Positions 18,436-43,749 of a stretch of DNA of 64,000 bases are shown here, in pieces. The position numbers were made by a program, and so were the translations under genes. Location of the stretch: assembly GCA_041675205.1 (NCBI GenBank), contig JBAYUF010000003.1:111025-175024 (forward strand), read 5' to 3'. Below the pieces are notes generated by a model. The model had not been told where the DNA came from, made no database searches, and worked only from the letters and a program-made list of their open reading frames with translations. Source of the DNA: Patescibacteria group bacterium (lineage in GTDB: Bacteria > Patescibacteriota > Patescibacteriia > GWA2-46-9). Numbering within the stretch: position 1 is the stretch's first letter; every line of letters begins with the position of its first letter.

Positions 18436-18960
18436 AAAAATCTTTAACCCCTGGCGGGTTGGAGATTTTTTGTTTGAGAGATATGATGGATTCGAACCAG
18501 AGGCGAAGGGGTTCCGCCAGAGGCGGACAAGCTAGAGAAGCGATTGACGATGGTTCTAGTCCCGTGAAGCGGGACGGAATCATGTCCCCCAGATATCTTT
18601 AAGAAAAACCTCCCGGTCTTCCTTAATATTCCTTTCCCTCGGCTAAGGTCGTTCAGAAATCATTTCACACGACAGCGAGCTAAGCTCTACGGCCGTCGTG
18701 CTCACAATTTCTTCACTCTAGTAAGACAGAACAATCTAAATAGTTTTAGGGAAGTAAACGAGAGTTGTGACCGATTCCCCCAGCCAAAAATCCTTGGCCC
18801 CCATTGTGGGGCTGAGGTTTTTTGATTGTAGGAGTATAATGGATTCGAACCAGGCGAAGTGGGTCCACCAGAGGGGCACAGGCCAGAAAAGCAGACGACG
18901 ATAGTTCTAGTCCCGAGAAGCGGGACGGAATCATGTCCCCCAGCCATCTTGAGATAGGTT
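18436..18960 (+). repeat. array of degenerate tRNA-Gln-derived repeats (pseudo 3' ends TCCCCCAG(CCA) at 18585, 18776 and 18936), two ~180 nt units plus a copy of the ~120 nt tRNA-downstream element
   Basis: Unit 1 (~18446-18592) and unit 2 (~18796-18946) align along their length. Each ends with GCGGGACGGAATCATG^TCCCCCAG, which is the tRNA-Gln 3' part with the T-arm deleted. Each contains an inverted T-arm-like GGATTCGAACC. Unit 2 starts with a second TTCCCCCAGCCA. Confidence 0.7.
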
Positions 18961-18986
18961 ATTGCGAACGAGGTGTATAGATAAAT

Positions 18987-20204
18987 ATGAATTTGGTTAA
19001 TAAATTTTTTTTAGACAAAGTAAAGCAAGATGAGCTAGAAATGGTACTCTTGTCTTATTTTGGGAGAGGAAATGGTCCACATGAAGGCAAATCTGTATAC
19101 CATAAAGAAGACGATGACAGTTTTTCCGTAACTATTTATTATGGTTCGAGCGGAGAGATCCAGTCAATAGAAAATGGTTCAAAACTTAGCGAGAGAGATA
19201 TAAATGAGATTTTACAGAAAATATCTGATGAGTTAATCGGCGCTCAGGAAGTAGTCGTCGCTAGGGATATTTGTTTTGTAACAGGTTCTAAGGTTGAAGA
19301 GTATTTTACATACAAGGATATATTTCAAATACTGCCCATGCCGTCTGATGCTCCTCAAATACAAAACCAAATGTGGGGGCATCACCCAATTTTATTAGAA
19401 TACAAATATGTTTCATCAAAAAATACTCTAGTAAATGGGTTTAGAAAAAGTAAAAAATTCAGAGAATTAATCACGCTGTTACATTTATTGTCGCAAAGAT
19501 TTTATGGTCCTTCTAGATTTGGTCAGTCTGACTGGGTAGTTATTAGTAATGAAGATATAGAAAAGACAACCAGCGAATTTAAACAGATGGGCTATTGGTA
19601 TAGTAAAAAATTCCAAACCGATAATTCATTTTCATCGACAAAAGGTATAAAAGAGGTTGAATTTGGAAAAAGTAAAAGCAATGAGCTGACTTTTATTGAA
19701 GACGCTGATAAATTGTTAGATATTATTTTTATATTGGATCATGACAGATACTCAAAATTCATCACTTCCTGCTATTGGTTTTATACAGCAAACGAGATCT
19801 GGAAAACTTCGTATTCGGTTTCGTATGTTTGTTTGGTAACGAGTATCGAATGTCTTATGAGCAATGTAGAAAAGTGTGAGTGCGGATCAGCTCTTACAGA
19901 TAAATCTATAGAGAAATGCGAAATATGCGGTGAACCGAAATATAGGATAGGAAAAAGTTTCAAAGACTTTCTAGAAAAATATTCCAATGAGGAATACTCT
20001 AAACTATCCAAGGAAGAGAAAAGTTATATTTACAATATTAGATCCACCATGCTTCATGGAGAAAGAGTATTTACTAGAGACTTTGAACCAATGGGATTCT
20101 TGGGATATCAAAAATCATACGAAAGCGCTTTTCATCGCACGATTTCAAGTTTAGTCTTCGGTGCTTTGATTAACTGGCTTTCTGATAATAAAAAGGTAAA
20201 GTAG
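18987..20204 (+). CDS. hypothetical protein with CxxC...CxxC zinc-ribbon and possible HEPN-like Rx4H motif (defence candidate)
   Basis: Contains CECGSA...CEICGE and, near the C-terminus, NIRSTMLHGE (R-x4-H). AT-rich codon usage. A good RBS GAGGTG precedes the ATG. Confidence 0.5.
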   Translation: MNLVNKFFLDKVKQDELEMVLLSYFGRGNGPHEGKSVYHKEDDDSFSVTIYYGSSGEIQSIENGSKLSERDINEILQKISDELIGAQEVVVARDICFVTGSKVEEYFTYKDIFQILPMPSDAPQIQNQMWGHHPILLEYKYVSSKNTLVNGFRKSKKFRELITLLHLLSQRFYGPSRFGQSDWVVISNEDIEKTTSEFKQMGYWYSKKFQTDNSFSSTKGIKEVEFGKSKSNELTFIEDADKLLDIIFILDHDRYSKFITSCYWFYTANEIWKTSYSVSYVCLVTSIECLMSNVEKCECGSALTDKSIEKCEICGEPKYRIGKSFKDFLEKYSNEEYSKLSKEEKSYIYNIRSTMLHGERVFTRDFEPMGFLGYQKSYESAFHRTISSLVFGALINWLSDNKKVK

Positions 20205-20309
20205 TGTCGCATTTGTCGCTTTGAATCCGTTGCGAAGAGCCTCAAGGTGTTATAATAAAGAACATCAGAAAACACTTTTCTGCTTCCTTCTTGTAATAGA
20301 ATCATTTAT

Positions 20310-21032
20310 ATGAAACACCAACTTCTTTATAAGGATCTCGCTCGTTATTACGATCATATTTATTCATTTAAAAATTACGAGGCTGAGACCAAGGAACTGC
20401 GTAGTCTTATTGAAAAATATAAGCGTTCCAAGGGAAGCGACATGCTCGACATTGCCTGTGGTACCGGGAAACATTTAGCCTATTTCAAGCGTTGGTATTC
20501 GTGTATTGGGGTTGATGTTAATGAGGGTATGCTACGGGTGGCCCGGAAAAAGATTAAAGGTGTCGTTTTTAAAAAAGGTGACATGACGACACTGAAACTC
20601 AATCGGACTTTTGACGTTATTACCTGTTTATTTAGTTCAATAGGATATGTTCGCACCTATGCAAACCTAGGAAAGACTATCATTGCTTTGTCTAAGCATT
20701 TGAAGCCAGGTGGTGTGCTTATTATTGAACCCTGGTTTACGCAAAAAACATATCGGCCAGGCTTACCGCATATGACGACATACAGTTCCCCGGATATAAA
20801 AATTGCGAGACTTAATGTAAGTGAACGTCGTGGCAGTGTGTCGGTCATGGATATGCATTATCTTGTCGCCGAGCGGGGGCATAAGGTGAAATATTTTGTT
20901 GACCGCCATGAACTCGGCATGTTTGAGCCAGATCGTTTGATAGGTCTAATGCGAAAGGCAAACCTCGAGACGCGCCTTGCAAAGTCAAAACTGATGAAGG
21001 ACCGCGGGTTGTATGTTGGCGTTAAGGTTTAA
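20310..21032 (+). CDS. class I SAM-dependent methyltransferase (TylM1/DesVI-like small-molecule methyltransferase)
   Basis: The N-terminal Y..YD.IY...Y..E pattern and SAM motif I (LDIACGTGKH) resemble sugar N,N-dimethyltransferases. Confidence 0.65.
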   Translation: MKHQLLYKDLARYYDHIYSFKNYEAETKELRSLIEKYKRSKGSDMLDIACGTGKHLAYFKRWYSCIGVDVNEGMLRVARKKIKGVVFKKGDMTTLKLNRTFDVITCLFSSIGYVRTYANLGKTIIALSKHLKPGGVLIIEPWFTQKTYRPGLPHMTTYSSPDIKIARLNVSERRGSVSVMDMHYLVAERGHKVKYFVDRHELGMFEPDRLIGLMRKANLETRLAKSKLMKDRGLYVGVKV

Positions 21033-21072
21033 AAAATTTGTATTAGGCGTATTGGCGTGCATTTAAAAAAAT

Positions 21073-21819
21073 ATGGATGAAGAAATAAAGATCAATGAAT
21101 TCAATAAAATTTTAGAGCAGGCAAAAAATGACGATAGGGTTATCGGGCTAATTTTAGCTGGCGGACGCGGCAAGGGCATGTTCACAGAAAATTCTGATTA
21201 CGACGTTGCTATAATTACAACCGATGAATCGATTTTAGGTGTTAAGGAAGATTACAAAGGCACACAAGATATTATTGATATAGGGGTATTATCGATATCT
21301 GAATTTAGAATATATGCAGCAGTAGGAACAGCGGAAGACTGGGATAGATATACTTACGCACATATAAAAGCTCGCATTGATAAAACAGGAGAAATCCAAA
21401 AGATAATTGATGAAAAAGGTATTTTGCCGCAAGAGCAAATATCAAAAGTAGCAAAAAAAGCTTTGTGTGGTTATCTAAATTCTTTGTATCGTGCTTTAAA
21501 AAATCACAGAGACGGAAACGAATTTGCCTCGCGTTTAGACGCTTGTGAATCTTTGCCTTGGTTACTAACCTTTCTCTTTGCAGTTGAGGGGCGAGTTCGT
21601 CCGTACAATAAGTTTCTGAAATGGGAACTTGAGAACTATCCATTAAAGAATCTACCAATCTCATCTGAAGATTTTTTAGCAAAAATCGAATTAATTATCA
21701 AAATAGGCGATATTGAAATCCAAAAAGAATTTCATAAAATTGCAGAAGAAATTGCAGTAAAAAATGATTGTGTTGATGTGATAGACGACTGGGCAGGATA
21801 TTATTTTGCTAGAGAATAA
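21073..21819 (+). CDS. nucleotidyltransferase-fold protein, ANT(6)/AadK-like
   Basis: The N-terminal minimal NTase motif GGRGKG...SDYDVAII and the overall length match aminoglycoside 6-adenylyltransferase-like proteins. Confidence 0.5.
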   Translation: MDEEIKINEFNKILEQAKNDDRVIGLILAGGRGKGMFTENSDYDVAIITTDESILGVKEDYKGTQDIIDIGVLSISEFRIYAAVGTAEDWDRYTYAHIKARIDKTGEIQKIIDEKGILPQEQISKVAKKALCGYLNSLYRALKNHRDGNEFASRLDACESLPWLLTFLFAVEGRVRPYNKFLKWELENYPLKNLPISSEDFLAKIELIIKIGDIEIQKEFHKIAEEIAVKNDCVDVIDDWAGYYFARE

Positions 21820-21825
21820 TTAAGC

Positions 21826-22475
21826 ATGACACTCCTTAAATTCGAAAACATTCCTATACATGAATGCGGAGACGAACTCGTTAATCTAGGCGAATACGAC
21901 TTCGCTCTTGAACCGGTCTATTTCAATTTAGGTTTCTCTCCGGAGCCACGTATTTTTCTTCGTAAATCAGTCGTCGACAAACTTATTGGCATACAGAATA
22001 GTCTGAACGGATATCGCTTTAAGATCTGGGATGGTTTTCGCCCGCGTTCTGTACAGCAGAAGATTTATGAAAAGTTTTGGAATGAGCTGAGTGAAGCACA
22101 TTCCGAATGGGACGAAGAAAGATTGAAGATGGAAGTTGGTGTGTTTGTCACCACGCCTAACGACCAAAACCGCATTCCTCCTCATGCCACAGGTTCAACA
22201 GTTGACCTAACGCTCGTTGACTCGGATGGTAACGAACTCGATATGGGTACGGCATTTGATTATTTTGACCAGAAGCAGCGGCTTTCTACTTTGACGAGAA
22301 TCCGGGAAACTTGACGGCAGCAAAGAATAGAAAGCTACTTCGAGAGACAATGTATGCTGGGGGTTTTGGAGGAGACAAAGACGAGTGGTGGCACTTTGAC
22401 TATGGGAATCAGAAGTGGGCAGTCGAGCTAGGTCACGCTGAAGCGATGTTCGGAGAGGCTGAAATTCCTAAATGA
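21826..22475 (+). pseudogene. VanX-like D-Ala-D-Ala dipeptidase (peptidase M15D), disrupted by a frameshift
   Basis: The N-terminal 162 aa ORF (21826-22314) carries the active site PHATGSTVDLTL and DYFD. The C-terminal conserved part (AAKNRKLLRETMYAGGF...EWWHFDY) is encoded in a different frame, 22269-22475. The shift lies between about 22270 and 22312. Confidence 0.6.
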
Positions 22476-22942
22476 GTTCCTGCATTACTTCTGAGCAAAA
22501 ATCTATGCAACCATCAAAACACCCAAAAGTAGGTTTAGGTATTATTATCGTTAATAGTGAAGGGCGTATTTTAATTGGCAAGCGGATAGGGAGTCATGCC
22601 CAAAAATATTCTATTCCTGGGGGCCACTTAGAAATGGGTGAGACATTTGAGGAGGGAGCTATTCGAGAGGTCAAAGAGGAAACTAATTTGAATATAGTTG
22701 AACCGAAAGTAATTGCCATTACTAATAATTTAGAAACTTTCAAAGAAGAAGGGGAGCACTACATTTCTGTCATTCTTCTGGCACGAAAATATACGGGCGA
22801 ATTAATAAACATGGAGCCGGATAAATGTGAAGAACTTATTTGGGTAGACCCCAAAAATCTCCCTCAGCCTCATTTTGACGCAAGCGCATTAGGAGTATCG
22901 TGCTATTTGAAAGGCAGTTTTTATAGTGGGGCTGATTTTTGA
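22472..22942 (+). CDS. Nudix hydrolase
   Basis: Nudix box GGHLEMGETFEEGAIREVKEETNL. The 3' end runs into a copy of the GGGGCTGA repeat, so the C-terminus is uncertain. Confidence 0.7.
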   Translation: MSSCITSEQKSMQPSKHPKVGLGIIIVNSEGRILIGKRIGSHAQKYSIPGGHLEMGETFEEGAIREVKEETNLNIVEPKVIAITNNLETFKEEGEHYISVILLARKYTGELINMEPDKCEELIWVDPKNLPQPHFDASALGVSCYLKGSFYSGADF

Positions 22943-22977
22943 TTGTAGGAGTATAATGAATTTGAACCGGGCGAAGG
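22926..22977 (+). repeat. third copy of the GGGGCTGA...TTGATTGTAGGAGTATAATG(G/A)ATT(C/T)GAACC...GGCGAAG element
   Basis: Near-identical to 18806-18863 over about 50 nt. Confidence 0.6.
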
Positions 22978-23065
22978 GCTTGGGAATCGGAGGCTGGCAA
23001 ATTGGGTAATCTGATCCAAATACTTTTTAGGAGACTAGTGGTGTAAAGAAAAGGGAGAAATAATT

Positions 23066-24883
23066 ATGGCCAAAATAAAAGACATTCCAAAAGTAGATCG
23101 CCCAAGGGAAAAGTTCCTACAAAAGGGCTCGGAAGCACTTTCAAAAAGTGATCTTTTGGCAATCTTGCTTGGCAGTGGAATAAAAGGGAAAAATGTAAGA
23201 CAGCTTTCCGAGAATATCATTAAAAAATTTGGTAATAAATTTTTAGATATCAAAGTGGATGATTTGCTTCAGGTCTCAGGAATAGGCCAAGCAAAAGCAC
23301 TACAAATTGTTTCTGCTATTTCTTTGGTAAAAAGATTTTACGATGAGCAAAAAAGAAGCGAAATTATAATAAAGAATCAGCAGGATGTCTTAGCCCTGAC
23401 GTACGATCTGACAGATAAGAAGAAAGAGTACTTAGTCTGTCTCTATTTAAACACGAGAAATGTCTTGATAAAAAAAGAGGTTGTTAGTGTTGGATTACTC
23501 GATAAAAGCTTAGTTCACCCCAGAGAAATATTTCATCCAGCCGTTGAATTTAATGCCGCTAGTATTATTTTAATTCACAATCATCCCTCCGGAATATCAG
23601 ACCCGAGTGAGAAAGATATTGAGATTGTTAAAAAAATATCCCAGGCTGGTGACATAATGGGAATTGCTGTAATTGATTTTGTTATTACTGCTAACAATGG
23701 GAGTTATAGTTTTTATGACAAACTACAACAAGGTAAGAAACATTTGGATTACGTTGCTGACGGCATACAAGGAACCTTATTTGATCTTTTAGAGATTGAA
23801 AAGCCGACTTATGAAATAAATGCCGAAAAGATACAAGAAAATTATTTTTATATTCCTCAAATTAAGAAGAATCACCTCCAGTTACAAAATCGGAGATATA
23901 TTGGAAGTAAGCATAAACTAATTGAATGGATTTTTTCTATAATCAATAAAGAATGCGAGAAACGAAGTTCCTTTGCTGATGTCTTTGCAGGCACCGGAGT
24001 TGTTTCGGCTGTCGCGGCTAGGCATTTTGATGAAATCATATTGAACGATTTTCTACATTCAAATTATGCAATCTATCAGGCTTTTTTTGGTAATGGTAAG
24101 TGGGACAAACAAAAGCTTGACGATATAATCAAAAATTACAATAACATCAACGGTGAAGACCTAGAAAAGAATTATTTCTCTGAAAACTTTGGCGGAAAGT
24201 ATTTCAGTCATAATTCCTCAAAGATAATTGGATTCATAAGAGAAAATATTGAGGAAAATAAAAGCAATTTAACTGATAAGGAATATTATATTCTCATTGC
24301 TTCTTTGTTGTATTCAATTGATAAGGTTGCAAATACGGTTGGTCACTACGATGCCTATTTCAAAAAGGATCATTTTGAAGACGGGTTTTTTATGAGACCA
24401 ATTGATCCAATCGAAGTAAAGAGAGTGGCTATCTTTAGAGAAGACACAAATCTTTTAGCAAAAAAAATTAAAGCCGATGTTGTCTATATTGATCCTCCAT
24501 ATAATTCAAGACAATACAGTCGTTTTTATCATGTGCTTGAGACTCTAACGAAGTGGGATAAACCAAGACTTTATGGAACGGCATTAAAACCCGAAGAAGA
24601 AAATATGAGTGATTACTGTAAGGTACGAGCAAGAGATAGACTTGCCGAGTTGGTCCGGGACTTAGATGCCAAATATCTAGTAGTGTCATACAACAATACT
24701 TACGATTCAAAAAGCAACTCTTCAAAAAATAAGATCACCCTGCAGGAAATAAAAGATATTTTAGTCTCTAAGGGTAAAACAAAGGTTTTTGAAAAAGACT
24801 ACAGGCATTTTAATGCCGGAAATACCGATTTCAAAAATCATAAAGAATACTTGTTTGTAACTACCACAGACTATGCAAAGTAA
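23066..24883 (+). CDS. RadC-like JAB/MPN domain fused to Dam-like (alpha-class) N6-adenine DNA methyltransferase (R-M methylase M1)
   Basis: Residues 1-220 carry the RadC HhH plus JAMM motif HNHPSG...SEKD. The C-terminal part carries YIGSKHKL, FAGTG (motif I) and DPPY (motif IV). The RBS is AAAAGGGAGAAAT. Confidence 0.8.
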   Translation: MAKIKDIPKVDRPREKFLQKGSEALSKSDLLAILLGSGIKGKNVRQLSENIIKKFGNKFLDIKVDDLLQVSGIGQAKALQIVSAISLVKRFYDEQKRSEIIIKNQQDVLALTYDLTDKKKEYLVCLYLNTRNVLIKKEVVSVGLLDKSLVHPREIFHPAVEFNAASIILIHNHPSGISDPSEKDIEIVKKISQAGDIMGIAVIDFVITANNGSYSFYDKLQQGKKHLDYVADGIQGTLFDLLEIEKPTYEINAEKIQENYFYIPQIKKNHLQLQNRRYIGSKHKLIEWIFSIINKECEKRSSFADVFAGTGVVSAVAARHFDEIILNDFLHSNYAIYQAFFGNGKWDKQKLDDIIKNYNNINGEDLEKNYFSENFGGKYFSHNSSKIIGFIRENIEENKSNLTDKEYYILIASLLYSIDKVANTVGHYDAYFKKDHFEDGFFMRPIDPIEVKRVAIFREDTNLLAKKIKADVVYIDPPYNSRQYSRFYHVLETLTKWDKPRLYGTALKPEEENMSDYCKVRARDRLAELVRDLDAKYLVVSYNNTYDSKSNSSKNKITLQEIKDILVSKGKTKVFEKDYRHFNAGNTDFKNHKEYLFVTTTDYAK

Positions 24884-25778: not shown

Positions 25779-25782
25779 ATAT

Positions 25783-28237: not shown

Positions 28238-28314
28238 GCCGGGCAAATCTCATAGTCTTCATTCAAGACTCCTTTCAGGAGTCTTGATGACTTTGCTATA
28301 CTTACGGTAAGACA

Positions 28315-28611: not shown

Positions 28612-28626
28612 TTAATAACAAACTAT

Positions 28627-29701: not shown

Positions 29702-29711
29702 ATTTAATGAA

Positions 29712-32354: not shown

Positions 32355-32363
32355 TCAACTACT

Positions 32364-35219: not shown

Positions 35220-35243
35220 ATTATTCCGTGATAAACTACTAGA

Positions 35244-37878: not shown

Positions 37879-37886
37879 TTCTTCAA

Positions 37887-38333: not shown

Positions 38334-38349
38334 TATTTCCAGCTCGAAT

Positions 38350-38745
38350 TTATTGTTCGGGTATGAATATAGCCGGATAAAATTCAGTAAATTTTTTTAA
38401 ACGAGCTTCGTCACCGCTTAGTTCTAAAACAGCAGCGAGGATATGCTGATCGCTCAATTGGTCTGGCCGAGCGCCCTGCTCAGATTCCTGTGACTCGTTC
38501 GCGGTTGGAGCAACGGGAAATGGTTCCCGCAGGGCGCAGTACAAAGAGACTTCCCCCGAGCTCACCTCTATGTCGGCAGACTCGGCCATATGTTCAGCCT
38601 GTATTTTTGATGCGTTGCGAAATTTGTGCTCTGGATCTGCTACCAGTCTTCGGGCTTCCTCCAAAGCCTTGGCGTTTAATTCAATATGAAACGAGACGAC
38701 TGAATCAGGTGAATATTGTTCTGACTGTTCATGGGAATGCATCAT
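38350..38745 (-). CDS. hypothetical acidic protein
   Basis: A 131 aa ORF and the only minus-strand gene in this stretch. No motifs. Confidence 0.35.
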   Translation of the reverse strand: MMHSHEQSEQYSPDSVVSFHIELNAKALEEARRLVADPEHKFRNASKIQAEHMAESADIEVSSGEVSLYCALREPFPVAPTANESQESEQGARPDQLSDQHILAAVLELSGDEARLKKFTEFYPAIFIPEQ

Positions 38746-38794
38746 AGCTATAATAGTAGGAGCTTCAGAAAAATACGCAATACTCAGTAGAAAT

Positions 38795-39223
38795 ATGAAT
38801 AAACCGCAAATAATTATGTTGACCGTTGAAACAGCTATAGACGCCGTTCCCGAGCAGGTATGGCATTATTGGACTGAGCCAGAGCACATTACAAAATGGT
38901 GCCACGCGTCAGAGGATTGGCACGCGCCCAGCGCAACGAATGACGCACGGGTGGGTGGGAGATTCAAAACAGTAATGGCCGCGAGGGACGGGAGCACCGG
39001 GTTTGATTTTGAGGGAACCTACACAGTAGTTGAGCAACCTCACAAAATCGAATACGCAATGGACGACGGAAGAAAGGTTGTTATTGATTTTTTGGCCGAG
39101 GGCAACATGACAAAAGTGATTGAGGCGTTTGATACTGAAAACGAAAATTCGTTAGAAATGCAAAAGGACGGCTGGCAGTCGATTTTGAACAACTTTAAAA
39201 AATACGTAGAGTCGCAAAAATAA
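38795..39223 (+). CDS. SRPBCC superfamily protein (AHSA1-like)
   Basis: VPEQVWHYWTEPEHITKWC... matches the AHSA1/START-like pattern. Confidence 0.6.
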   Translation: MNKPQIIMLTVETAIDAVPEQVWHYWTEPEHITKWCHASEDWHAPSATNDARVGGRFKTVMAARDGSTGFDFEGTYTVVEQPHKIEYAMDDGRKVVIDFLAEGNMTKVIEAFDTENENSLEMQKDGWQSILNNFKKYVESQK

Positions 39224-39231
39224 TTAAGATA

Positions 39232-39732
39232 ATGTCAAAACCAAAAATTATCATCGTAGATGACAATGACGTTCCGATTGGTCTCATGAACCGAGAAGAG
39301 ATAGACCCCACGAAAGATAACTATCGATGTGCCGGTATTTGGGTTACCAATGCAAAGGGTGAAGTGTTAATCGCCCAGCGAAAGTTTACGAAGCACGTTG
39401 ACCCAGGTAAGTGGGGCCCCGCGGCGGCTGGAACCGTTGACGAGGGGGAAACGTATGAATCAAATGCGCATAAAGAGCTGGAAGAAGAACTTGGCATTAC
39501 TGATGTTACGTTTACGCTTGGTCCAAAAAGATTTGTAACTTCACCGAGAAGATATTTCGTCCAGTACTTTATTTGTGAAATAGATAAACCCGTAACCGAT
39601 TTTATAATTCAAGAAGATGAAGTTGAGAAAATTGAATGGATTAGTAAAGCAGTGCTGTTGCAGGATCTCAAAGACCACCCTGAAAAATACTTACCGCATT
39701 TTTCGGAGAGCGTGAGCCTCGTTATTTCATAG
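39232..39732 (+). CDS. Nudix hydrolase
   Basis: Nudix box GTVDEGETYESNAHKELEEELGI. The gene is immediately downstream of an SRPBCC gene, an arrangement also seen at 28627-30155. Confidence 0.7.
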   Translation: MSKPKIIIVDDNDVPIGLMNREEIDPTKDNYRCAGIWVTNAKGEVLIAQRKFTKHVDPGKWGPAAAGTVDEGETYESNAHKELEEELGITDVTFTLGPKRFVTSPRRYFVQYFICEIDKPVTDFIIQEDEVEKIEWISKAVLLQDLKDHPEKYLPHFSESVSLVIS

Positions 39733-39750
39733 GTCACCACTGTTTTTTCG

Positions 39751-40413
39751 TTACGGCTGAACGACAACTGTTTTTGTCATTCGATCAACAAGGCCATCAA
39801 CATCAAACGATTCTCGCTCAGCTAGGCACTCGGTCTTTTGTGGGTCGTCGTAGTTTAAGCACTGCACGGCTCGCAGGCTGAAGGTAAAAGCAATGAGTTT
39901 ATTCTTCTTCTGTTCGCCGACATAGGTGTAGGTGGTGTATACACTGCCAGCTGCGCCTTCACTTTGTGTGGTGACGCAATACGTGCGGTCGTCAACCATG
40001 CGTTTTTCAACCGAGCCGCCTTTTCTGTTTTCGTTACCTCCCGAGGTGCAACCCAGTGGCCCGTCGAACAGGTTTACGATTGGTGGCCACTCGGCCGCGG
40101 TAATATATTTTGAAGCAAGCACCTCTGGGTATTTAAAGGTAACACCGAGGTCATTGTCGGTTGCTATTTCCCAGCCATCTTCTGGCGGAGCGGGGGAGTC
40201 TACTACCTCAGGGCAAGTTGCAAATTCACAGTTTGGCCCAGTGCGGCCTACGTAAGAGCCGTCGGGACATAGTTTTGCCTCCTGAGTGCATTGTGTGTAG
40301 TCCGGTTCTTTTGCCGTTTTTGGCCACAGTACGAACGCAATGCCAACGAGCAAAAGCACACCAAATAGTGAGAAGAGAGCCTTTCGTTGATTTGAATAGT
40401 GTTCTACTACCAT
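39751..40413 (-). CDS. hypothetical secreted Cys-rich protein
   Basis: An N-terminal TM/signal segment and multiple cysteines. Confidence 0.45.
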   Translation of the reverse strand: MVVEHYSNQRKALFSLFGVLLLVGIAFVLWPKTAKEPDYTQCTQEAKLCPDGSYVGRTGPNCEFATCPEVVDSPAPPEDGWEIATDNDLGVTFKYPEVLASKYITAAEWPPIVNLFDGPLGCTSGGNENRKGGSVEKRMVDDRTYCVTTQSEGAAGSVYTTYTYVGEQKKNKLIAFTFSLRAVQCLNYDDPQKTECLAERESFDVDGLVDRMTKTVVVQP

Positions 40414-40449
40414 AGTTCTACAGTAGCACGTTTATGCTATCATCACGCC

Positions 40450-41127
40450 ATGAAAACAGTATTGATAACCGGTGTTAGTCGCGGCATTGGTTTAGCCACG
40501 GCAAAAAAGTTTTTAGAAAATGGTTGGCAAGTAATTGGTACGTTTAATAAAACTGCCGTTCCAATGACTCACCCAGGCCTCGTTAGTATTAAGCTCGATA
40601 TAACATCTGAAGAAAGCATTGCGAAGGCCGTTGAGAGCATCCAGCAGGTAGCGCCACACCTTGACGTACTCATTAATAATGCAGGGGTAAGCGCAGACGC
40701 ATTTGAAACTTCGCCAAACATGCAAACAGTGCGGGCGACTTTTGAGACAAATGTCTTCGGGCTAATGACGCTTACTGAAAAATTACTGCCCGGAATTGTA
40801 ACCAGTGGTCACATTGTAAACGTTAGTTCTCGCTACGGTGCATTCTCTTTTGCAATCGACGGGCCGGACTCTACGGCGTACAGGATGTCAAAAGCCGCAC
40901 TTAATATGTATACTCGAACACTCGCATTTCGATTAAAAAAGAAAGGCGTCATCGTTTCTGCTATTCATCCAGGGTGGGTGAAGACGGACATGGGTAATTC
41001 TGCTGCCACTGAAAAGGAAAAGCCCACGATAGAGCCCGAAGAAGCGGCAAACGAAATTTACAATCTAATAATGAACAAAAGTGAGTCTGGTCAGTTTTGG
41101 CAATTTGGTAAACAAAGAGAGTGGTAG
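40450..41127 (+). CDS. short-chain dehydrogenase/reductase (SDR)
   Basis: The TGVSRGIG cofactor motif, NNAG, and catalytic S...YxxxK (YRMSK) are present. The ATG at 40450 is preferred; the ORF track gives 40399. Confidence 0.8.
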   Translation: MKTVLITGVSRGIGLATAKKFLENGWQVIGTFNKTAVPMTHPGLVSIKLDITSEESIAKAVESIQQVAPHLDVLINNAGVSADAFETSPNMQTVRATFETNVFGLMTLTEKLLPGIVTSGHIVNVSSRYGAFSFAIDGPDSTAYRMSKAALNMYTRTLAFRLKKKGVIVSAIHPGWVKTDMGNSAATEKEKPTIEPEEAANEIYNLIMNKSESGQFWQFGKQREW

Positions 41128-41167
41128 AAGTGTGGATTTAGTATTGACAAAAGCGTAGAAAATTGAT

Positions 41168-41962
41168 TTGATACATGGTCAACCATTGGGGTTGGCTACA
41201 CTCCCTACCGTTCACTTAACAACCACAGGCTACGGTACTGAGTTGTTTTTTGATTGGACTGAGGAGAATTGCTTCTACGGAAGCGGAGGAAACGAAAGCA
41301 TGGACTTTGAAAACTTCCACATCGAGTGGCTACTTGTGCCGCTCGTTTTCATCTTCAGGGCGACGAACTTCGTCCTGTCGCTCCACTGGGGCTGGTGGAT
41401 CGGCGGTCTCAGCGTCGCCGTGTTCATCGCCCGTTGGCAGTGGCGGGTGAGTCGTCGCCACAAGTTGGCTCTTGCCTACGAGGCAAGCCACGCGAACAGC
41501 TTGGCCGAGAGACAGCTTCAAGAGGCAGTTCGTGATGAGTGGTTGTGCCAGAACACGCTCCAGCTCTACTTCAACGCCATAGGCGGATTGATAGCGGTCA
41601 TGACGCCTCGGCAATATGCCGAGTGCACCCGAATCACCGACGCACAACGCGTGGATGGACGCTGGGAGTCTCAGACCGTTCTCGTTCCGTGGCTGCCAAC
41701 GGTTCTGTTTGCGACAGACTCCGCCTATGAACTGTGCGGGCCATCGATGCCCAAATGGGTGGAACGACCGTTCTTGGTCAGTCACCTGACCCAGCTGCAG
41801 GAACGGTACAACATTCACATGGTTCACAAGGTGGATATTTTTGTGCCATACGTTAACGAGGCTCTCGCTCCGTTCGATGAGCACAAATCGAACTCTTCGC
41901 CCCTTAGCCCCCGGCAGCTGCTCATCTACCCGCAGTTGCCCAGCAATCTGCACCCGTTCTAG
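41168..41962 (+). CDS. hypothetical protein in GC-rich patch
   Basis: A 264 aa ORF in a markedly GC-rich segment. The antisense ORF 41330-42136 is judged a GC-driven shadow. Confidence 0.4.
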   Translation: MIHGQPLGLATLPTVHLTTTGYGTELFFDWTEENCFYGSGGNESMDFENFHIEWLLVPLVFIFRATNFVLSLHWGWWIGGLSVAVFIARWQWRVSRRHKLALAYEASHANSLAERQLQEAVRDEWLCQNTLQLYFNAIGGLIAVMTPRQYAECTRITDAQRVDGRWESQTVLVPWLPTVLFATDSAYELCGPSMPKWVERPFLVSHLTQLQERYNIHMVHKVDIFVPYVNEALAPFDEHKSNSSPLSPRQLLIYPQLPSNLHPF

Positions 41963-41971
41963 GAGGATGCC

Positions 41972-42364
41972 ATGAACCCGATTGATTTCTTTTTCATGCT
42001 TTTCGAGCATTTCGGCTCCATGGGGTCGGTCACAACCTGGGGTGTGCCCTACGCGCGAAATGCGGAGGGCCTTCAGTCCTTCAACATCGTGGTCACGAAT
42101 ATGCCGGCCGATTCTCGTTTGGCCAACGGATGCCACGCGTGTTATTTCGACACGTGGCGCTGGAAAGTGCGGGACGGCGTCAAAGTCATCGATGTCGACG
42201 ATGAGCCAGACCTCGGGCTGGTCATTGCGGATTCGTGCTACGGGGAGCTGGAGGACTCCCTAAGGTACTTCGCCGGCTGCTTGTTGCCCCTCAATGGTGA
42301 GCCGCCTCTTCCGGCCGATGCGGCACTCCTCAAGGGTGCGTTCATCAACGCGCGCAGGCAGTAG
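41972..42364 (+). CDS. hypothetical protein in GC-rich patch
   Basis: A 130 aa ORF followed by a strong hairpin. Confidence 0.4.
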   Translation: MNPIDFFFMLFEHFGSMGSVTTWGVPYARNAEGLQSFNIVVTNMPADSRLANGCHACYFDTWRWKVRDGVKVIDVDDEPDLGLVIADSCYGELEDSLRYFAGCLLPLNGEPPLPADAALLKGAFINARRQ

Positions 42365-42388
42365 GAGCCGGTTGGCGTGCAGTTCAAT

Positions 42389-42424
42389 AGCGGCGGCGGT
42401 TCTCTAACCAGAACTGCCGCCGCT
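42389..42424. terminator. long GC-rich hairpin (likely terminator for 41972-42364)
   Basis: AGCGGCGGCGGTTCT-CTAACC-AGAACTGCCGCCGCT forms a ~15 bp stem. No clean U-tract follows. Confidence 0.4.
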
Positions 42425-42473
42425 AAAAGTTTACAGCGTGGGTAATGCAGCTACTTTGTGTTAAAATACACCT

Positions 42474-42908
42474 ATGAAGAGCGAAATATTTGACTATCTA
42501 AATTCTCAGCGGGTTGGTGTTTTGGCAGTGGAAATGCCAGACGGCTCGCCCCATGGGGCGACTGTTCACTTTGCCTACACGGAGGAACCGTTCGTTTTCT
42601 TTTTTGAAACGAATCGCGATTATCGAAAAACCGAGGCATTGTTTGCGAAGACAACAGTTCGAGCATCGTTTGTAGTGGGTACCGATGAGCTAGCGAAAAA
42701 AACAATGCAGCTAGATGGTATAGCAACGTTACTGCGTGCAGAGGAGAAAGAAATATATGATCATGTGTACTTGGCCAAGTATCCAGAAAAAATCAAGAAG
42801 TCGCTCGACCCCAAAGCAGTATTTTTCAAATTCACTCCAACCTGGTGGCGTTATACCGACTGGGCGCACATAAGCGCGTCGGGCACCCCAATAATCGTAA
42901 CGTCGTGA
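42474..42908 (+). CDS. pyridoxamine 5'-phosphate oxidase-like FMN-binding split-barrel protein
   Basis: ...RVGVLAVEMPDGSPHGATVHFAY... matches the PNPOx-like/general stress protein 26 pattern. Confidence 0.65.
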   Translation: MKSEIFDYLNSQRVGVLAVEMPDGSPHGATVHFAYTEEPFVFFFETNRDYRKTEALFAKTTVRASFVVGTDELAKKTMQLDGIATLLRAEEKEIYDHVYLAKYPEKIKKSLDPKAVFFKFTPTWWRYTDWAHISASGTPIIVTS

Positions 42909-43207
42909 GCACTGTTTTAAAAAATGACAAATACCGTCGGACGCGTGGTGGGCACGCGCGAATACTTGATATTTGCTGCGCCAACTGTTGTACACATTTG
43001 TTCTATTATCAAAAGGATGGGGCAGGGCATTTAAAAAGAATGTACCTCGACAGGATTGTTGGGCAAAAACTTCAGCAAAAGAATTTATCATGCCCGAAGT
43101 GCAAAGAGCTTATTGGTGTTGCTACGGTATACAAGAAAGAGAACAGGCCAGCAATTCGATTGTTTGTGGATTCTGTAACAAAGAAACAATACCGCTTGGT
43201 GGCGTAG
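42845..43207 (+). CDS. uncertain small Cys-rich (zinc-ribbon-like) protein; start and frame uncertain
   Basis: The GTG-start ORF contains CCANCC...CPKC. It overlaps the PNPOx gene by 64 nt. An alternative overlapping ORF at 42973-43320 shares a GVAT...KKE motif, suggesting a frameshift or duplication. Confidence 0.25.
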   Translation: MALYRLGAHKRVGHPNNRNVVSTVLKNDKYRRTRGGHARILDICCANCCTHLFYYQKDGAGHLKRMYLDRIVGQKLQQKNLSCPKCKELIGVATVYKKENRPAIRLFVDSVTKKQYRLVA

Positions 43208-43385
43208 CAACGTTAGTCGACATAGACAAGAAAGAAGTTGATTATTCTCTTCACCTCTCTAAGTTCCCCCAAAAATATAAGCGTCTCTTTATCCCATCTA
43301 GCAGAGGCAGTTTCTATTGATATTCTGATTACGACTTGATAACCTTTGCTAGACCCAAACTATTGGGGTTACAGGAGGAACGAAC

Positions 43386-43670
43386 TTGAAACTGGAAATC
43401 GGAAAGAAGCCAACACCAACCCTCGTCGTGAGGCCGCTCGGGCAACTGAAGCCTGGAGACTGTTTCAGGTACCACGATGGTGAGTGCCTCGAAACGCTGC
43501 TGCTGGATGAAAACCCCGCCGTTTTCATGGTCGTCCCAGGCACTCCCGCTGATGCTGATCGAGTTACCGTCTTTCCCCTCGACGGCAGGTCGGGAGTCAG
43601 CAAGAAAGACAGTGACCGCAAGGTCGTGCTGGTGGAGGCGACCGTGGTCCTGCGCGACGCTCGACGCTGA
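43386..43670 (+). CDS. hypothetical small protein in GC-rich patch
   Basis: A TTG start 8 nt after a consensus AGGAGG RBS. The 94 aa product is followed by a strong rho-independent terminator. Confidence 0.5.
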   Translation: MKLEIGKKPTPTLVVRPLGQLKPGDCFRYHDGECLETLLLDENPAVFMVVPGTPADADRVTVFPLDGRSGVSKKDSDRKVVLVEATVVLRDARR

Positions 43671-43689
43671 GTCGGCGGTTTGGTCATTC

Positions 43690-43735
43690 TGTGGGGGCGC
43701 GATACGAAATCGCGCCCCCACCTTTGATTTTATTT
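43690..43735 (+). terminator. rho-independent terminator
   Basis: A 12 bp perfect GC-rich stem TGGGGGCGCGAT/ATCGCGCCCCCA with loop ACGAA, followed by CTTTGATTTTATTTG. Confidence 0.75.
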
Positions 43736-43749
43736 GCTATAATATAAAC

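What the first reader, a model, noticed from the sequence alone, without database searches (positions are those of the whole stretch)
18436..43740. ~25 kb mosaic accessory region next to tRNA-Gln: AT-rich island with GC-rich patches and no recognisable integrase
Downstream of tRNA-Gln, base composition drops sharply. Genes from 18987 to ~35660 and again from ~37144 to 39732 are visibly AT-rich compared with the ~50% GC flanks. The gene content is entirely accessory: restriction-modification, Nudix hydrolases, kinases and methyltransferases. Two short, strongly GC-rich segments (41168-42424 and ~43380-43735) are embedded near the right edge.

The region begins with degenerate duplicates of the tRNA-Gln 3' end, which is the classical footprint of integrative elements. 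However, no tyrosine or serine recombinase, transposase or conjugation gene is visible in the window. Together this looks like an old, decayed, multiply-overprinted integration hotspot.
Basis: partly seen in the sequence, partly recalled or inferred. Interest (0 to 1): 0.65.

Follow-up and report, generated by a model that had tools for sequence, protein, structure and literature searches.

The report
Gene-gain hotspot beside tRNA-Gln
A 25-kb stretch next to a glutamine tRNA gene in an uncultured Patescibacteria (CPR) bacterium is a real, piecewise-acquired block of defence and accessory genes that relatives lack, an ordinary kind of genomic island, but the tRNA-end copies at its start look like E. 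coli RtT-type tRNA trailer repeats rather than integration scars.

Summary
The block 18436-43740 has 42.0% GC against 48% in the flanks. Its 4-mer signature deviates strongly from 18 to 35.7 kb (z 6-23). Three ORFs are GC-rich (GC3 0.67-0.76). No recombinase or transposase domain was found in any window ORF checked.

Synteny settles the origin. A relative (L096) has FtsX, tRNA-Gln, then EamA 55 nt later. Another has 2.6 kb of other genes there, and a third has at least 10 kb of different defence genes. The window block is therefore a lineage-specific fill of a shared hotspot.

It was built in pieces. A 4.3-kb type IIS restriction-modification cassette is 84-90% identical in DNA to cassettes in unrelated CPR contigs. 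The first gene, a HEPN-like protein, is 73-83% identical elsewhere, once beside a serine recombinase. The other genes checked are unique at 90% identity.

The tRNA-Gln 3'-end copies are real, but I do not read them as att scars of the island. All lie within 511 nt of the tRNA, and none marks the far boundary. They belong to about 160-nt units that follow many tRNAs in Patescibacteria. These units match the architecture of E. coli tyrT RtT repeats (Rfam RF00391), though the Rfam model does not detect the window's copies.

The parts
16568..18203 (+). Left core flank: ftsE (16568-17287) and ftsX (17238-18203).
   Evidence: Pfam annotations of L001. Orthologues at 44-53% identity lie in the same position in relatives.
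18362..18435 (+). tRNA-Gln(UUG) with encoded CCA, the left anchor of the hotspot.
   Evidence: ARAGORN and Rfam. It holds the same position after ftsX in L003-L006 and L096.
18436..18592 (+). tRNA-trailer unit U1. It consists of the tRNA terminator (about 18436-18472), head A (18475-18499, a degenerate reverse complement of the tRNA 3' end that includes ATGGATTCGAACCA), the hairpin TTCCGCCAGAGGCGGA, a GAAGCGA motif, a small hairpin, and the tail GGAATCATGTCCCCCAG (18576-18592).
   Evidence: Its head and body are 86% identical to L006 unit 2.
18595..18775 (+). Spacer between the units. Its first 115 nt or so are about 70% identical to the sequence following tRNA-Lys (11790-11905).
18776..18946 (+). 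tRNA-trailer unit U2. It starts with TCCCCCAGCCA (18776-18786), followed by a terminator (18792-18817), head B (18827-18852), a body, and the tail GGAATCATGTCCCCCAGCCA (18927-18946).
   Evidence: Its first 75 nt are 93% identical to L006 unit 1.
18947..18960 (+). Displaced ancestral tRNA flank, TCTTGAGATAGGTT.
   Evidence: The same sequence directly follows tRNA-Gln in L003-L005 (26-nt match at 96%). A related GATAGGGTAGG follows tRNA-Gln in L096.
18987..20204 (+). 405-aa HEPN-like protein with an invariant R352-x4-H357 motif and four invariant Cys. It is the most AT-rich gene (GC 0.337). It occupies the position where an integrase would be expected but is not a recombinase.
   Evidence: No Pfam, NCBIfam or PADLOC hit. 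The family has 12 members, 73-83% identical in other CPR contigs. The AF2 model has pTM 0.77. The best, non-significant fold hits are the RnlA HEPN RNase, and no recombinase fold appears.
20310..22942 (+). Small-gene block: class I methyltransferase (20310-21032), nucleotidyltransferase (21073-21819), VanX-like M15 dipeptidase split by a frameshift (21826-22314 plus 22311-22475), and Nudix (22472-22942).
   Evidence: Pfam. The split Peptidase_M15 gene calls are in L001. Gaps are listed.
22927..22978 (+). Partial third unit: the right arm of a terminator, head B (GTATAATGAATTTGAACC) and about 15 nt of body. It abuts the R-M cassette.
   Evidence: 93-94% identical to U2 and to the L006 unit 1 head.
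22987..27318 (+). Type IIS-like R-M cassette: RadC-D12 methyltransferase fusion (23066-24883), second D12 methyltransferase (24873-25778) and AlwI-family REase (25783-27318).
   Evidence: Pfam and PADLOC give full-length matches. The DNA is 90% identical to L088 and 84% to L089-L091, with different neighbours in each. The methyltransferase belongs to a cluster at 90% identity or more that includes Roizmanbacteria and Microgenomates MAG proteins.
27323..35660 (+). AT-rich array of tightly packed accessory genes. In order: a Cys-rich secreted protein, a 98-aa membrane protein, SRPBCC, DUF1801, Nudix, a 172-aa ORF shared with the L006 island, HAD, an APH kinase, Nudix, an 805-aa PEP-synthase/Rph-like protein, and Nudix.
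   Evidence: Pfam and NCBIfam. g30209 is 75% identical in protein to an L006 island gene.
35666..37147 (+). RNase II-family (RNB plus S1) gene with native-like composition (GC 0.507).
   Evidence: Pfam and composition. There is no counterpart in the relatives' intervals.
37144..41127 (.). Mildly AT-rich to native-like genes: a methyltransferase, a 148-aa ORF, a 131-aa ORF (-), SRPBCC, Nudix, a 220-aa ORF (-) and SDR.
   Evidence: Pfam and composition.
41168..42430 (+). GC-rich two-gene module (264 aa and 130 aa, GC3 0.69 and 0.76) followed by its own hairpin terminator.
   Evidence: Only distant relatives exist, at 40% identity or less. A relative sits next to an AAA_15 ATPase and is followed by a 133-aa ORF. 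There is no plasmid or phage DNA match.
42474..43207 (+). PNPOx-family gene (42474-42908) and an overlapping 120-aa ORF.
   Evidence: Pfam.
43386..43740 (+). GC-rich 94-aa ORF (GC3 0.67) followed by a hairpin terminator and a TATAAT box ahead of eamA. This is the right edge of the block.
43747..51514 (+). Right core flank: EamA, holin_4_2, DUF192, Na/H exchanger-TrkA_N, HtrA, NDH-2, GreA and a class II aaRS. Relatives have the same order.
   Evidence: Pfam. Synteny holds in L003-L005 and L096. EamA is 62% identical to the L003-L005 orthologue.

Best explanation
Window 18436-43740 is the lineage-specific content of a gene-gain hotspot. The hotspot lies between two conserved core anchors, ftsEX-tRNA-Gln on the left and eamA on the right, in a Uhrbacteria-like Patescibacteria genome.

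The ancestral state is tRNA-Gln followed almost directly by eamA. The 25 kb was added in several independent events from other CPR bacteria and from unknown donors:
- a very recent 4.3-kb type IIS R-M cassette;
- a mobile HEPN-like gene;
- an AT-rich array of small Nudix, SRPBCC, kinase and methyltransferase genes;
- a GC-rich two-gene module;
- older or native-like genes near the right edge.

Functionally it is a flexible pool of defence genes (R-M, a putative HEPN RNase) and small-molecule or nucleotide house-cleaning and modification enzymes.

Shown: the insertion, the mosaicism, the horizontal spread of two modules, and the absence of a recombinase.

Inferred: the mechanism. I think the most likely mechanism is serial insertion of small cassettes. 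Some probably arrived on recombinase-bearing mini-elements that later lost the recombinase. Others probably entered by homologous or illegitimate recombination after DNA uptake, using the conserved flanks and the repeated tRNA-trailer sequences.

The tRNA 3'-end copies at the left edge are RtT-like tRNA trailer units, not the att sites of the island.
For: Empty site: in L096, FtsX is followed by tRNA-Gln and then EamA 55 nt later. In L003-L005, the same flanks enclose only 2.6 kb (a 105-aa ORF, MazE, PD-(D/E)XK and an aldo-keto reductase). In L006, the same left flank is followed by at least 10 kb of other genes (T5orf172, DpnI, SLFN/AlbA_2, AbiEii and others). The right flank has the same gene order.

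Only one island gene has a counterpart in a relative's interval.

Mosaic composition is shown per gene and by 4-mer signature.

The R-M cassette boundaries are 22987/23057-27289. It is 84-90% identical in DNA to cassettes with unrelated neighbours. Its methyltransferase clusters at 90% identity or more with Roizmanbacteria and Microgenomates proteins, whereas core FtsX is at most 53% identical to anything else.

The HEPN-like gene is 73-83% identical in other CPR contigs. In one it lies directly after tRNA-Ser with a large serine recombinase 0.7 kb downstream. In another it sits inside a similar array of small accessory genes.

No recombinase or transposase domain is present. The first ORF shows no recombinase fold.
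Against: The closest available relatives are distant (FtsX 44-53% identical). The timing and order of insertions cannot be resolved, and part of the right third (35.7-43.7 kb, native-like signature) could be older lineage-specific DNA rather than horizontally acquired.

No insertion mechanism is demonstrated. No junction repeats were found for the cassettes. The right end of the L006 region was not seen. The window comes from a metagenome assembly, so contiguity rests on the assemblies alone.
Confidence: 0.78

Rival explanations
1. The block is one classical tRNA-targeting integrative element (tyrosine-integrase island or prophage) that has since decayed. On this reading the tRNA-Gln 3'-end duplicates are its att sites and the integrase has been deleted.
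For: The block is adjacent to a tRNA gene, direct copies of the tRNA 3' end exist, and composition drops sharply at the tRNA. The tRNA's ancestral flank is displaced to a position after the last copy.
Against: All copies lie within 511 nt of the tRNA. No copy or fragment occurs near 43.7 kb or anywhere else except a partial head at 22.9 kb. The displaced flank lies to the left of the island, so the island is outside the repeat-bounded segment. Composition and relatedness show several independent pieces. No integrase, excisionase, phage or conjugation gene is present. The same repeat architecture follows many tRNAs with no recombinase among the 1-2 ORFs annotated downstream in six loci and matches E. 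coli RtT repeats.
Confidence: 0.08
2. The tRNA-trailer units are tiny non-autonomous integrative elements (attP-only, CIME-like) that insert repeatedly into tRNA 3' ends through a recombinase supplied in trans. On this reading they mark the site as recombinationally active, and cargo such as the R-M cassette is inserted between their head and body.
For: Tandem arrays have a period that includes the terminator and the tRNA 3'-end copy (L078 tRNA-Asp, L070 tRNA-Met, the window and L006). Head types A and B are 86-93% identical between the window and L006 but occur in opposite order. A partial head abuts the R-M cassette edge. Accessory or defence genes follow units in L065 and L055.
Against: Both the inverted head and the direct tail match whichever tRNA is adjacent (Gln, Asp, Met, Thr, Gly, Arg). 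This is hard to explain for a mobile element with a fixed attP. No recombinase is linked in the loci examined. E. coli RtT repeats, which share the architecture, are described as processed RNA from the tyrT transcript (bioRxiv 10.1101/2024.07.17.603846; PMC3318445).
Confidence: 0.12
3. The region is native, vertically inherited DNA whose odd composition reflects gene function or expression, not acquisition.
For: GC3 of many island genes is close to the core value (the Mann-Whitney test on GC3 was not significant, p = 0.14). The 35.7-43.7 kb part has a near-native 4-mer signature. All genes are co-oriented with their neighbours.
Against: The site is empty in L096 and holds different contents in two other relatives. 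The R-M cassette and the HEPN-like gene are far more similar to genes in unrelated CPR lineages than any core gene is. The 4-mer signature gives z up to 23.
Confidence: 0.03
4. The junctions are metagenome assembly artefacts, meaning a chimeric contig that joins DNA from different organisms.
For: The source is a metagenome contig, and the composition changes abruptly at 18.95 kb.
Against: Both flanks are syntenic with the same relatives, so the contig returns to the same genome after the block. The same proteins are recorded from two assemblies of about 180 kb (180,389 and 180,355 bp). The left junction contains clade-specific trailer units shared with L006.
Confidence: 0.03

Closest known systems
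Horizontal-transfer hotspots or flexible genomic islands between conserved core genes, often next to tRNA genes and often without a recognisable mobile element. This concept comes from comparative genomics and is stated here from my own knowledge.
   Same: The flanking core genes are conserved. The interval is empty, small or large and holds different genes in different relatives. Composition is mosaic, the cargo is defence and accessory genes, and no recombinase is present.
   Different: The case here is in a CPR/Patescibacteria genome with very small intergenic gaps and complete co-orientation. The nearest comparators are only 44-53% identical in FtsX, so turnover rates cannot be measured.
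tRNA-targeting integrative islands, prophages and ICEs carrying a tyrosine integrase.
   Same: Location at the 3' side of a tRNA gene, direct copies of the tRNA 3' end, and foreign composition.
   Different: There is no integrase and no distal att copy. The tRNA-end copies are clustered within 511 nt and belong to structured units that also occur with no recombinase among the first 1-2 annotated ORFs downstream. The island lies beyond the displaced ancestral flank.
E. coli tyrT/tyrV 178-bp repeats, also known as RtT RNA (rttR; Rfam RF00391).
   Same: The units lie directly downstream of a tRNA on the same strand and are tandemly repeated. Each has a 5' segment that is the reverse complement of the tRNA's T-loop, T-stem and acceptor 3' strand, a GC-rich middle with a central hairpin and a GAAGCGA-type motif, and a 3' end that copies the tRNA 3' end (searches compared).
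   Different: The Rfam model does not detect the window's units and gives only 20.7 bits (gathering score 45) on one CPR unit. The CPR units follow several different tRNAs and include the tRNA's terminator. The window's heads carry G-to-A changes that weaken the closing helix on the tRNA strand.
Chromosomal integron cassette arrays.
   Same: A long co-oriented array of small, tightly packed accessory genes (Nudix, SRPBCC, DUF1801, methyltransferases and kinases). A similar array occurs in L095.
   Different: There is no IntI. Gaps of 0-50 nt and overlapping genes leave no room for attC sites.
AlwI-family type IIS restriction-modification systems.
   Same: A full-length RE_AlwI endonuclease and two D12 N6-adenine methyltransferases in one operon.
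   Different: The first methyltransferase is fused to an N-terminal RadC-like JAB domain. This fusion is conserved in all cassette copies seen. The recognition sequence is unknown.

Membership tests
tRNA-targeting integrative element (tyrosine-integrase island, prophage or ICE) | An integrase gene at one end of the element, next to the tRNA. | tested here: not met
   No recombinase domain was found in any island ORF. The ORF next to the tRNA is HEPN-like and shows no recombinase fold. The rest of the window is also negative.
tRNA-targeting integrative element (tyrosine-integrase island, prophage or ICE) | A direct repeat of the tRNA 3' segment at the distal boundary (attR). | tested here: not met
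   Searches with 10-24-nt tRNA 3'-end probes allowing mismatches, and blastn-short with whole units, find copies only at 18576-18592, 18776-18786 and 18927-18946, plus a partial head at 22927-22978. Nothing is found near 43.7 kb.
tRNA-targeting integrative element (tyrosine-integrase island, prophage or ICE) | Presence/absence polymorphism at the tRNA site. | tested here: met
   L096 is empty, L003-L005 hold 2.6 kb, and L006 holds at least 10 kb of other genes.
Horizontal-transfer hotspot or flexible island between core genes | The same conserved core genes flank the interval in relatives. | tested here: met
   tRNA-Thr(-), tRNA-Gly(-), ftsE, ftsX and tRNA-Gln lie on the left. EamA, holin_4_2, DUF192, Na/H exchanger, HtrA, NDH-2, GreA and an aaRS lie on the right.
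Horizontal-transfer hotspot or flexible island between core genes | Different, unrelated gene sets occupy the interval in different genomes. | tested here: met
   tblastn of all island proteins against the relatives' intervals finds only g30209 shared with L006 (75%) and a weak PNPOx match.
Horizontal-transfer hotspot or flexible island between core genes | Several independent acquisitions rather than one event. | tested here: met
   Distinct composition classes are present. The R-M cassette has its own boundaries and close relatives elsewhere. The HEPN-like gene has different relatives and contexts. The GC-rich module is separate.
Integron cassette array | An IntI integrase and attC sites between cassettes. 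| tested here: not met
   No integrase was found. Intergenic gaps are mostly 0-50 nt with overlapping genes, and no recurrent junction motif is present.
Type II (IIS, AlwI-family) restriction-modification system | An AlwI-family endonuclease together with cognate methyltransferase(s) in one operon. | tested here: met
   PF09491 scores 1.2e-43 and PADLOC REase_II scores 2e-127 over residues 6-505. Two PF02086 methyltransferases have full-length PADLOC MTase_II matches.
Type II (IIS, AlwI-family) restriction-modification system | Sequence-specific cleavage and protective methylation. | not testable with these tools
   This needs methylome data or biochemistry.
RtT RNA (Rfam RF00391), i.e. tyrT-type tRNA trailer repeats | Scores at or above the Rfam gathering threshold (45 bits). 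| tested here: not met
   The window's units give no RtT hit even at E up to 10 in a 531-nt search. The L011 Gly-adjacent unit scores 20.7 bits (E 0.064) as the top, full-length hit. The L055 unit gives no hit. The E. coli repeats score 133-137 bits.
RtT RNA (Rfam RF00391), i.e. tyrT-type tRNA trailer repeats | Located directly downstream of a tRNA on the same strand, tandemly repeated, each unit ending in a copy of the tRNA 3' end. | tested here: met
   The window has U1 and U2. L006 has two units. Arrays occur in L078 and L070.
RtT RNA (Rfam RF00391), i.e. tyrT-type tRNA trailer repeats | A 5' segment complementary to the tail, forming the closing helix on the tRNA strand. | tested here: inconclusive
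   The helix is clear in L010, L011, L065 and L078 (9-14 bp). In the window, heads A and B are complementary to the tail only with two or three A.C mismatches on the + strand, which would be G.U on the - strand. The strand-asymmetry test had too few mismatches. RNAalifold on a MAFFT alignment gave no consensus.
RtT RNA (Rfam RF00391), i.e. tyrT-type tRNA trailer repeats | Transcribed and processed into a discrete RNA. | not testable with these tools
   No expression data are available. Only consensus promoter-like and terminator-like sites were found.
HEPN-domain RNase (Apea-like or RnlA-like) | A conserved Rx4-6H motif in an all-helical C-terminal domain. | tested here: met
   R352 and H357 are invariant in the 12-member alignment. 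The model is helical over residues 240-404.
HEPN-domain RNase (Apea-like or RnlA-like) | A significant match to a HEPN profile or a solved HEPN structure. | tested here: not met
   No Pfam family matches at E up to 1 for any member. The PDB sequence profile search found nothing relevant. The best Foldseek hits are RnlA at E 0.08-0.14, with TM below 0.2. One distant homologue carries the source label 'Apea-like HEPN'.

The most novel reading that the evidence does not exclude
RtT-type tRNA trailer units are not an enterobacterial curiosity. On this reading they are an ancient, widespread class of tRNA-templated structured elements whose ends are rewritten to match whichever tRNA they follow. 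In Patescibacteria they would act as terminator-promoter landing pads at which foreign cassettes accrete without a dedicated integrase, and this would be how the tRNA-Gln island grew. The evidence offered for this is a partial unit fused to the R-M cassette edge and defence genes following units in other lineages.
Probability: 0.15. Interest if true: 0.7.

Novelty: new member of a known kind. Interest (0 to 1): 0.4.

Why it matters
As an island, this is a clean but ordinary example. Its value is that it documents an empty site, two alternative fillings and a recently exchanged R-M cassette in the CPR. Mobile elements and routes of gene flow are poorly described in this group, and genomes are small enough that 25 kb of accessory DNA is a sizeable investment.

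The case also warns against a common shortcut. Partial tRNA copies next to a tRNA are not automatically att scars.

The side finding could matter more. Units with the architecture of E. coli RtT repeats follow many tRNAs across distant Patescibacteria. If confirmed, this would extend a functionally unexplained RNA/repeat class far beyond Enterobacteria and give many independent sequences with which to work out what it does.

Tried and rejected
1. Rfam on the window's trailer region found only the tRNA.
2. A strict DNA signature of the unit scanned against GTDB species genomes found only the L006 contig. Against viral contigs it found nothing.
3. The metagenome scan with an FtsX profile returned only distant loci, at 36% identity or less. 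These were useful for the unit census but not for close synteny.
4. The test of G.U versus A.C asymmetry in head:tail helices found too few mismatches and was inconclusive.
I therefore did not build a covariance model.
6. I considered tmRNA (including permuted forms), split or intron-containing tRNA, retron ncRNA, an IS110 bridge RNA, attC sites, and a primer-binding site of a retroelement for the units. I rejected them for lack of the partner gene or motif (no RT, no IS110 transposase, no IntI), no ARAGORN or Rfam tmRNA hit, and because the RtT architecture fits better.
7. The integron idea for the gene array was rejected because the gaps are too small.
8. The 405-aa ORF as a cryptic recombinase was rejected.
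9. An Actinobacterial origin of the GC-rich patch could not be tested. The indexed search found only the query itself. The exhaustive search found 70 relatives at 40% identity or less with no organism names. There was no plasmid or phage DNA match, and DNA of the one long-contig relative was unavailable.
11. The primary RtT paper (PMC329039) is not held.
12. No att repeats were found around the serine-recombinase insert in L092, as expected for that enzyme class.

Full report
**1. What is in the window**

The window is part of a 180-kb metagenome contig (ENA ERZ27247358 k141_2283382) that NCBI names 'Patescibacteria group bacterium'. Its FtsX is at most 53% identical to any other protein in the database. 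The nearest relatives are a Candidatus Uhrbacteria MAG (GCA_002793855.1) and two unnamed MAG contigs.

tRNA-Gln(UUG) lies at 18362-18435 on the + strand, directly after ftsE-ftsX.

**2.

- GC drops from 0.477 to 0.337 within 1 kb of the tRNA.
- The block 18436-43740 has GC 0.420, against 0.482 and 0.477 in the flanks.
- Core genes average GC 0.479 (sd 0.024). Genes from 18987 to 35660 range 0.337-0.448.
- The RNase II gene (35666-37147) is native-like at 0.507.
- Three ORFs near the right edge are GC-rich (0.556-0.593) with GC3 of 0.67-0.76, against 0.455 in the core.
- A tetranucleotide-signature profile gives z = 6-23 for windows between 17 and 36 kb, peaking on the R-M genes, but z < 4 from 35 to 44 kb.

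The compositionally foreign part is therefore about 17 kb. The right third is near-native or ameliorated, with small foreign patches.

Pfam, NCBIfam and PADLOC confirm the gene content:
- an AlwI-family endonuclease with two D12 methyltransferases, the first fused to a RadC/JAB domain;
- six Nudix genes and two SRPBCC/AHSA1 genes;
- DUF1801, HAD and an APH-type kinase;
- an 805-aa PEP-synthase/rifampicin-phosphotransferase-like protein that falls below every equivalog cut-off;
- a nucleotidyltransferase, two class I methyltransferases, an SDR and PNPOx;
- a VanX-like dipeptidase that is split by a frameshift.

No recombinase, transposase or conjugation domain occurs in the island or in the integrase-sized ORFs of the rest of the window.

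**3. Presence/absence test**

This is the decisive result. All relatives share tRNA-Thr(-), tRNA-Gly(-), ftsE, ftsX and tRNA-Gln(+). Their contents at the site differ:

| Relative | FtsX identity | Between tRNA-Gln and eamA |
|---|---|---|
| L096 | 44% | 55 nt (empty site) |
| L003-L005 (Uhrbacteria MAG) | 53% | 2.6 kb: a 105-aa ORF, MazE, PD-(D/E)XK, aldo-keto reductase |
| L006 | 52% | at least 10 kb of other genes, running off the locus: T5orf172, DpnI, SLFN/AlbA_2, AbiEii, PNPOx, His_Phos_1, Nudix |

In L003-L005, the genes after the variable stretch are eamA, holin_4_2, DUF192, Na/H exchanger, HtrA, NDH-2, GreA and an aaRS. This is the order found at window 43.7-51.5 kb.

Of all island proteins, only the 172-aa ORF at 30209-30727 has a real counterpart in a relative's interval (75% to L006). 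EamA, by contrast, is a 62% orthologue.

**4. The block was assembled piecewise, and part of it recently**

The R-M operon is a discrete segment. Window 23057-27289 is 90% identical in DNA to L088, and 22987-27287 is 84% identical to L089-L091. In those contigs the same three genes (605, 301 and 511 aa) sit among unrelated neighbours: Fic, an OLD-family nuclease, DUF2130 and a P-type ATPase.

The RadC-methyltransferase belongs to a 31-member cluster at 90% identity or more that includes Candidatus Roizmanbacteria and Microgenomates-group MAG proteins. That is a different CPR lineage, so the similarity indicates recent horizontal spread.

The 405-aa first gene has a 12-member family, with 73-83% identity in other CPR contigs, including a Nomurabacteria MAG. 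Two contexts are informative:
- In L092/L093 it lies directly after a tRNA-Ser. A 218-aa ORF and a large serine recombinase follow it.
- In L095 it sits in a long co-oriented array of methyltransferase, Nudix, AHSA1, DUF1801, glyoxalase and acetyltransferase genes, much like the window's array.

All other island proteins checked are unique at 90% identity.

The GC-rich 264-aa ORF has only distant relatives (40% identity or less) with no organism names. One of them lies next to an AAA_15 ATPase and is followed by a 133-aa ORF. This suggests a two-gene module of unknown donor. It has no plasmid or phage DNA match.

Gaps between island genes are mostly 0-50 nt, with several overlaps. There are no attC-like junctions.

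**5. The gene at the 'integrase position' is not a recombinase**

It has no Pfam, NCBIfam or PADLOC match. The family alignment shows an invariant R352-x4-H357 motif and four invariant cysteines.

An AlphaFold model (pTM 0.77) has an N-terminal alpha/beta part and a C-terminal helical domain. Foldseek against the PDB gives no significant hit. The best matches are the E. coli RnlA HEPN endoribonuclease (E 0.08-0.14), with Csm6 lower down, and no recombinase fold appears.

I read it as a probable HEPN-type defence RNase. This is an inference.

**6. The tRNA 3'-end copies**

The copies are real, but their anatomy differs from a simple att scar. Downstream of the tRNA there are two units, U1 (18436-18592) and U2 (18776-18946), 73-84% identical by segment. 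Each unit is built as follows:
- a terminator;
- a 'head' that is the (degenerate) reverse complement of the tRNA's T-loop, T-stem and acceptor 3' strand;
- a GC-rich body with a hairpin;
- a small covarying hairpin;
- a 'tail' that copies the tRNA 3' end.

L006 has two such units. Its head types A and B are 86-93% identical to the window's but occur in opposite order.

The sequence that directly follows tRNA-Gln in L003-L005 (TCTTGAGATAGGTT) follows the U2 tail in the window. The units were therefore inserted or duplicated between the tRNA and its old flank, and the 25-kb island lies beyond that flank.

No copy of any unit part occurs at the right boundary. The only other fragment is a partial head at 22927-22978, fused to the left edge of the R-M cassette.

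**7. The units are a widespread family**

I surveyed 102 distinct tRNAs from the fetched Patescibacteria loci:
- A downstream copy of the tRNA's own 3' end occurs after 10 of 31 tRNA-Gln genes and 5 of 71 other tRNAs.
- Upstream, such a copy occurs for 0 of 31 and 1 of 71.
- Many also have an inverted copy.

Units follow tRNA-Gln, Asp, Met, Thr, Gly and Arg. The ends always match the adjacent tRNA. For example, L055 uses GGGACTCGAAC where the window uses GGATTCGAAC, and L078 has units after both Gln and Asp, the latter as a tandem array.

The well-preserved units fold on the tRNA's strand into a multi-branch structure closed by a 9-14-bp head:tail helix. Some have their own terminator.

The genes following the units include defence and accessory genes (ThsB-TIR plus SLATT, and YcaO) but no recombinase.

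**8. Closest known: RtT repeats**

The E. coli tyrT/tyrV locus carries 178-bp repeats annotated as sRNA RttR. Each repeat has these parts:
- GGGGAAGGAT...TTCGA, the split reverse complement of the tRNA-Tyr sequence TTCGAATCCTTCCCC;
- a GC-rich middle with a central hairpin and GAGCG/GCGAAGCG motifs;
- the tRNA 3' end AATCCTTCCCCCACCACCA.

Rfam RF00391 (RtT) scores these repeats at 133-137 bits. Its consensus structure is closed by exactly this head:tail helix.

The CPR units share position, strand, the logic of head and tail, a central hairpin and a GAAGCGA(CG) motif just 5' of the tail. That motif occurs on the tRNA strand downstream of 5 of 20 tail-bearing tRNAs, against 4 of 113 others (Fisher p = 0.004).

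The Rfam model's results on the CPR units were mixed:
- On one CPR unit (L011, tRNA-Gly) it is the top, full-length hit, but at only 20.7 bits (E 0.064, gathering score 45).
- It misses the L055 unit.
- It misses the window's units.

I therefore call the units RtT-like by architecture, not demonstrated members of the family. The function of RtT is still unknown even in E. coli (bioRxiv 10.1101/2024.07.17.603846; PMC3318445, citing Bosl and Kersten 1991).

In the window's own units, the closing helix is weakened by G-to-A changes. These changes would be G.U pairs only on the opposite strand. The window's units may be degenerate, and neither their strand nor whether they function as RNA or DNA is settled.

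**9. Mechanism**

Shown: insertion into a conserved interval, multiple origins, horizontal mobility of two modules, and absence of a resident recombinase.

Inferred: cassettes arrive serially. Some probably arrive on small recombinase-bearing elements. The same HEPN-like gene travels with a serine recombinase next to a tRNA in L092, and the window could have lost such a recombinase. Others probably enter by homologous or illegitimate recombination after DNA uptake, with the conserved flanks and the repeated trailer sequences offering homology. The partial trailer head fused to the R-M cassette is consistent with recombination at these repeats, or with re-use of a local terminator-promoter module.

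**10. Verdict**

This is a real genomic island of a known kind at a demonstrable hotspot, and a new member rather than a new class.

The 'integrative-element footprint' reading of the tRNA-end copies is not supported. 'Old and decayed' is only partly true, because the R-M cassette is recent.

The RtT-like trailer units across Patescibacteria are the most interesting by-product and deserve their own follow-up.

Noticed in passing
window 18436-18946 and 22927-22978; L006 11005-11320; L010, L011, L040, L053, L055, L057, L063, L064, L065, L070 and L078 (downstream of various tRNAs): A family of units of about 110-190 nt follows many tRNA genes in distant Patescibacteria. Each has a terminator, a reverse complement of the tRNA's own 3' end, a GC-rich middle often carrying GAAGCGA, and a direct copy of the tRNA 3' end. 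Some occur as tandem arrays. The architecture matches E. coli tyrT RtT repeats (RF00391), but Rfam does not annotate them.
   Followed up: partly
window 11790-11905 compared with 18595-18715: The 115 nt or so that follow tRNA-Lys are about 70% identical to the sequence that follows the U1 tail, with an exact 19-mer TTCCTTAATATTCCTTTCC. The similarity starts right at the tRNA or tail 3' end. The two genes after tRNA-Lys (11927-13226) are also AT-rich (GC 0.41-0.42, z -2.3 and -2.9), which may indicate a second small tRNA-linked variable spot.
   Followed up: partly
window 23066-24883; L088 1399-3216; L089 1126-2943: The first methyltransferase of the AlwI-type R-M cassette is fused to an N-terminal UPF0758/RadC-like JAB domain. 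The fusion is conserved in a 31-member cluster at 90% identity or more, spread over several CPR lineages.
   Followed up: partly
L095 2700-16500; window 27323-43207: Long, fully co-oriented, tightly packed arrays of small accessory genes recur in unrelated CPR contigs. They include Nudix, SRPBCC/AHSA1, DUF1801, methyltransferases, glyoxalase/Ble, acetyltransferase and His_Phos_1. The content resembles an integron cassette array, but there are no attC sites and no integrase.
   Followed up: partly
L092 7833-11236: A compact insert lies directly after tRNA-Ser. It carries a homologue of the window's first island gene (83% identical), a 218-aa ORF and a large serine recombinase on the opposite strand. 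It is a candidate intact vehicle for this gene in CPR bacteria. No long att repeats were found.
   Followed up: partly
window 21826-22475: The VanX-like M15 dipeptidase is split into 162-aa and 54-aa ORFs in different frames. This is either a frameshift pseudogene or a sequencing error.
   Followed up: no
window 41168-42430; relative P0163 context: The GC-rich 264-aa and 130-aa pair has a distant relative arranged as a 296-aa and 133-aa pair next to a 756-aa AAA_15/AAA_23 ATPase. This may be an uncharacterised defence-type module. GC3 of 0.69-0.76 in a genome with GC3 0.45 implies recent entry from a GC-rich donor.
   Followed up: partly
window 58275-59519 (-): A core-region gene fuses a WecG/TagA glycosyltransferase domain to a C-terminal Nudix domain. 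Together with the six Nudix genes in the island, this shows an unusually large Nudix complement in 64 kb.
   Followed up: no
L040 8325-8420: After tRNA-Thr there is a partial second copy running from the anticodon stem to the 3' end, with 31 nt identical. In it the anticodon loop is replaced by a 26-nt insert carrying the same TTCCGCCAGAGGCGGA hairpin found in the window's U1 body.
   Followed up: no
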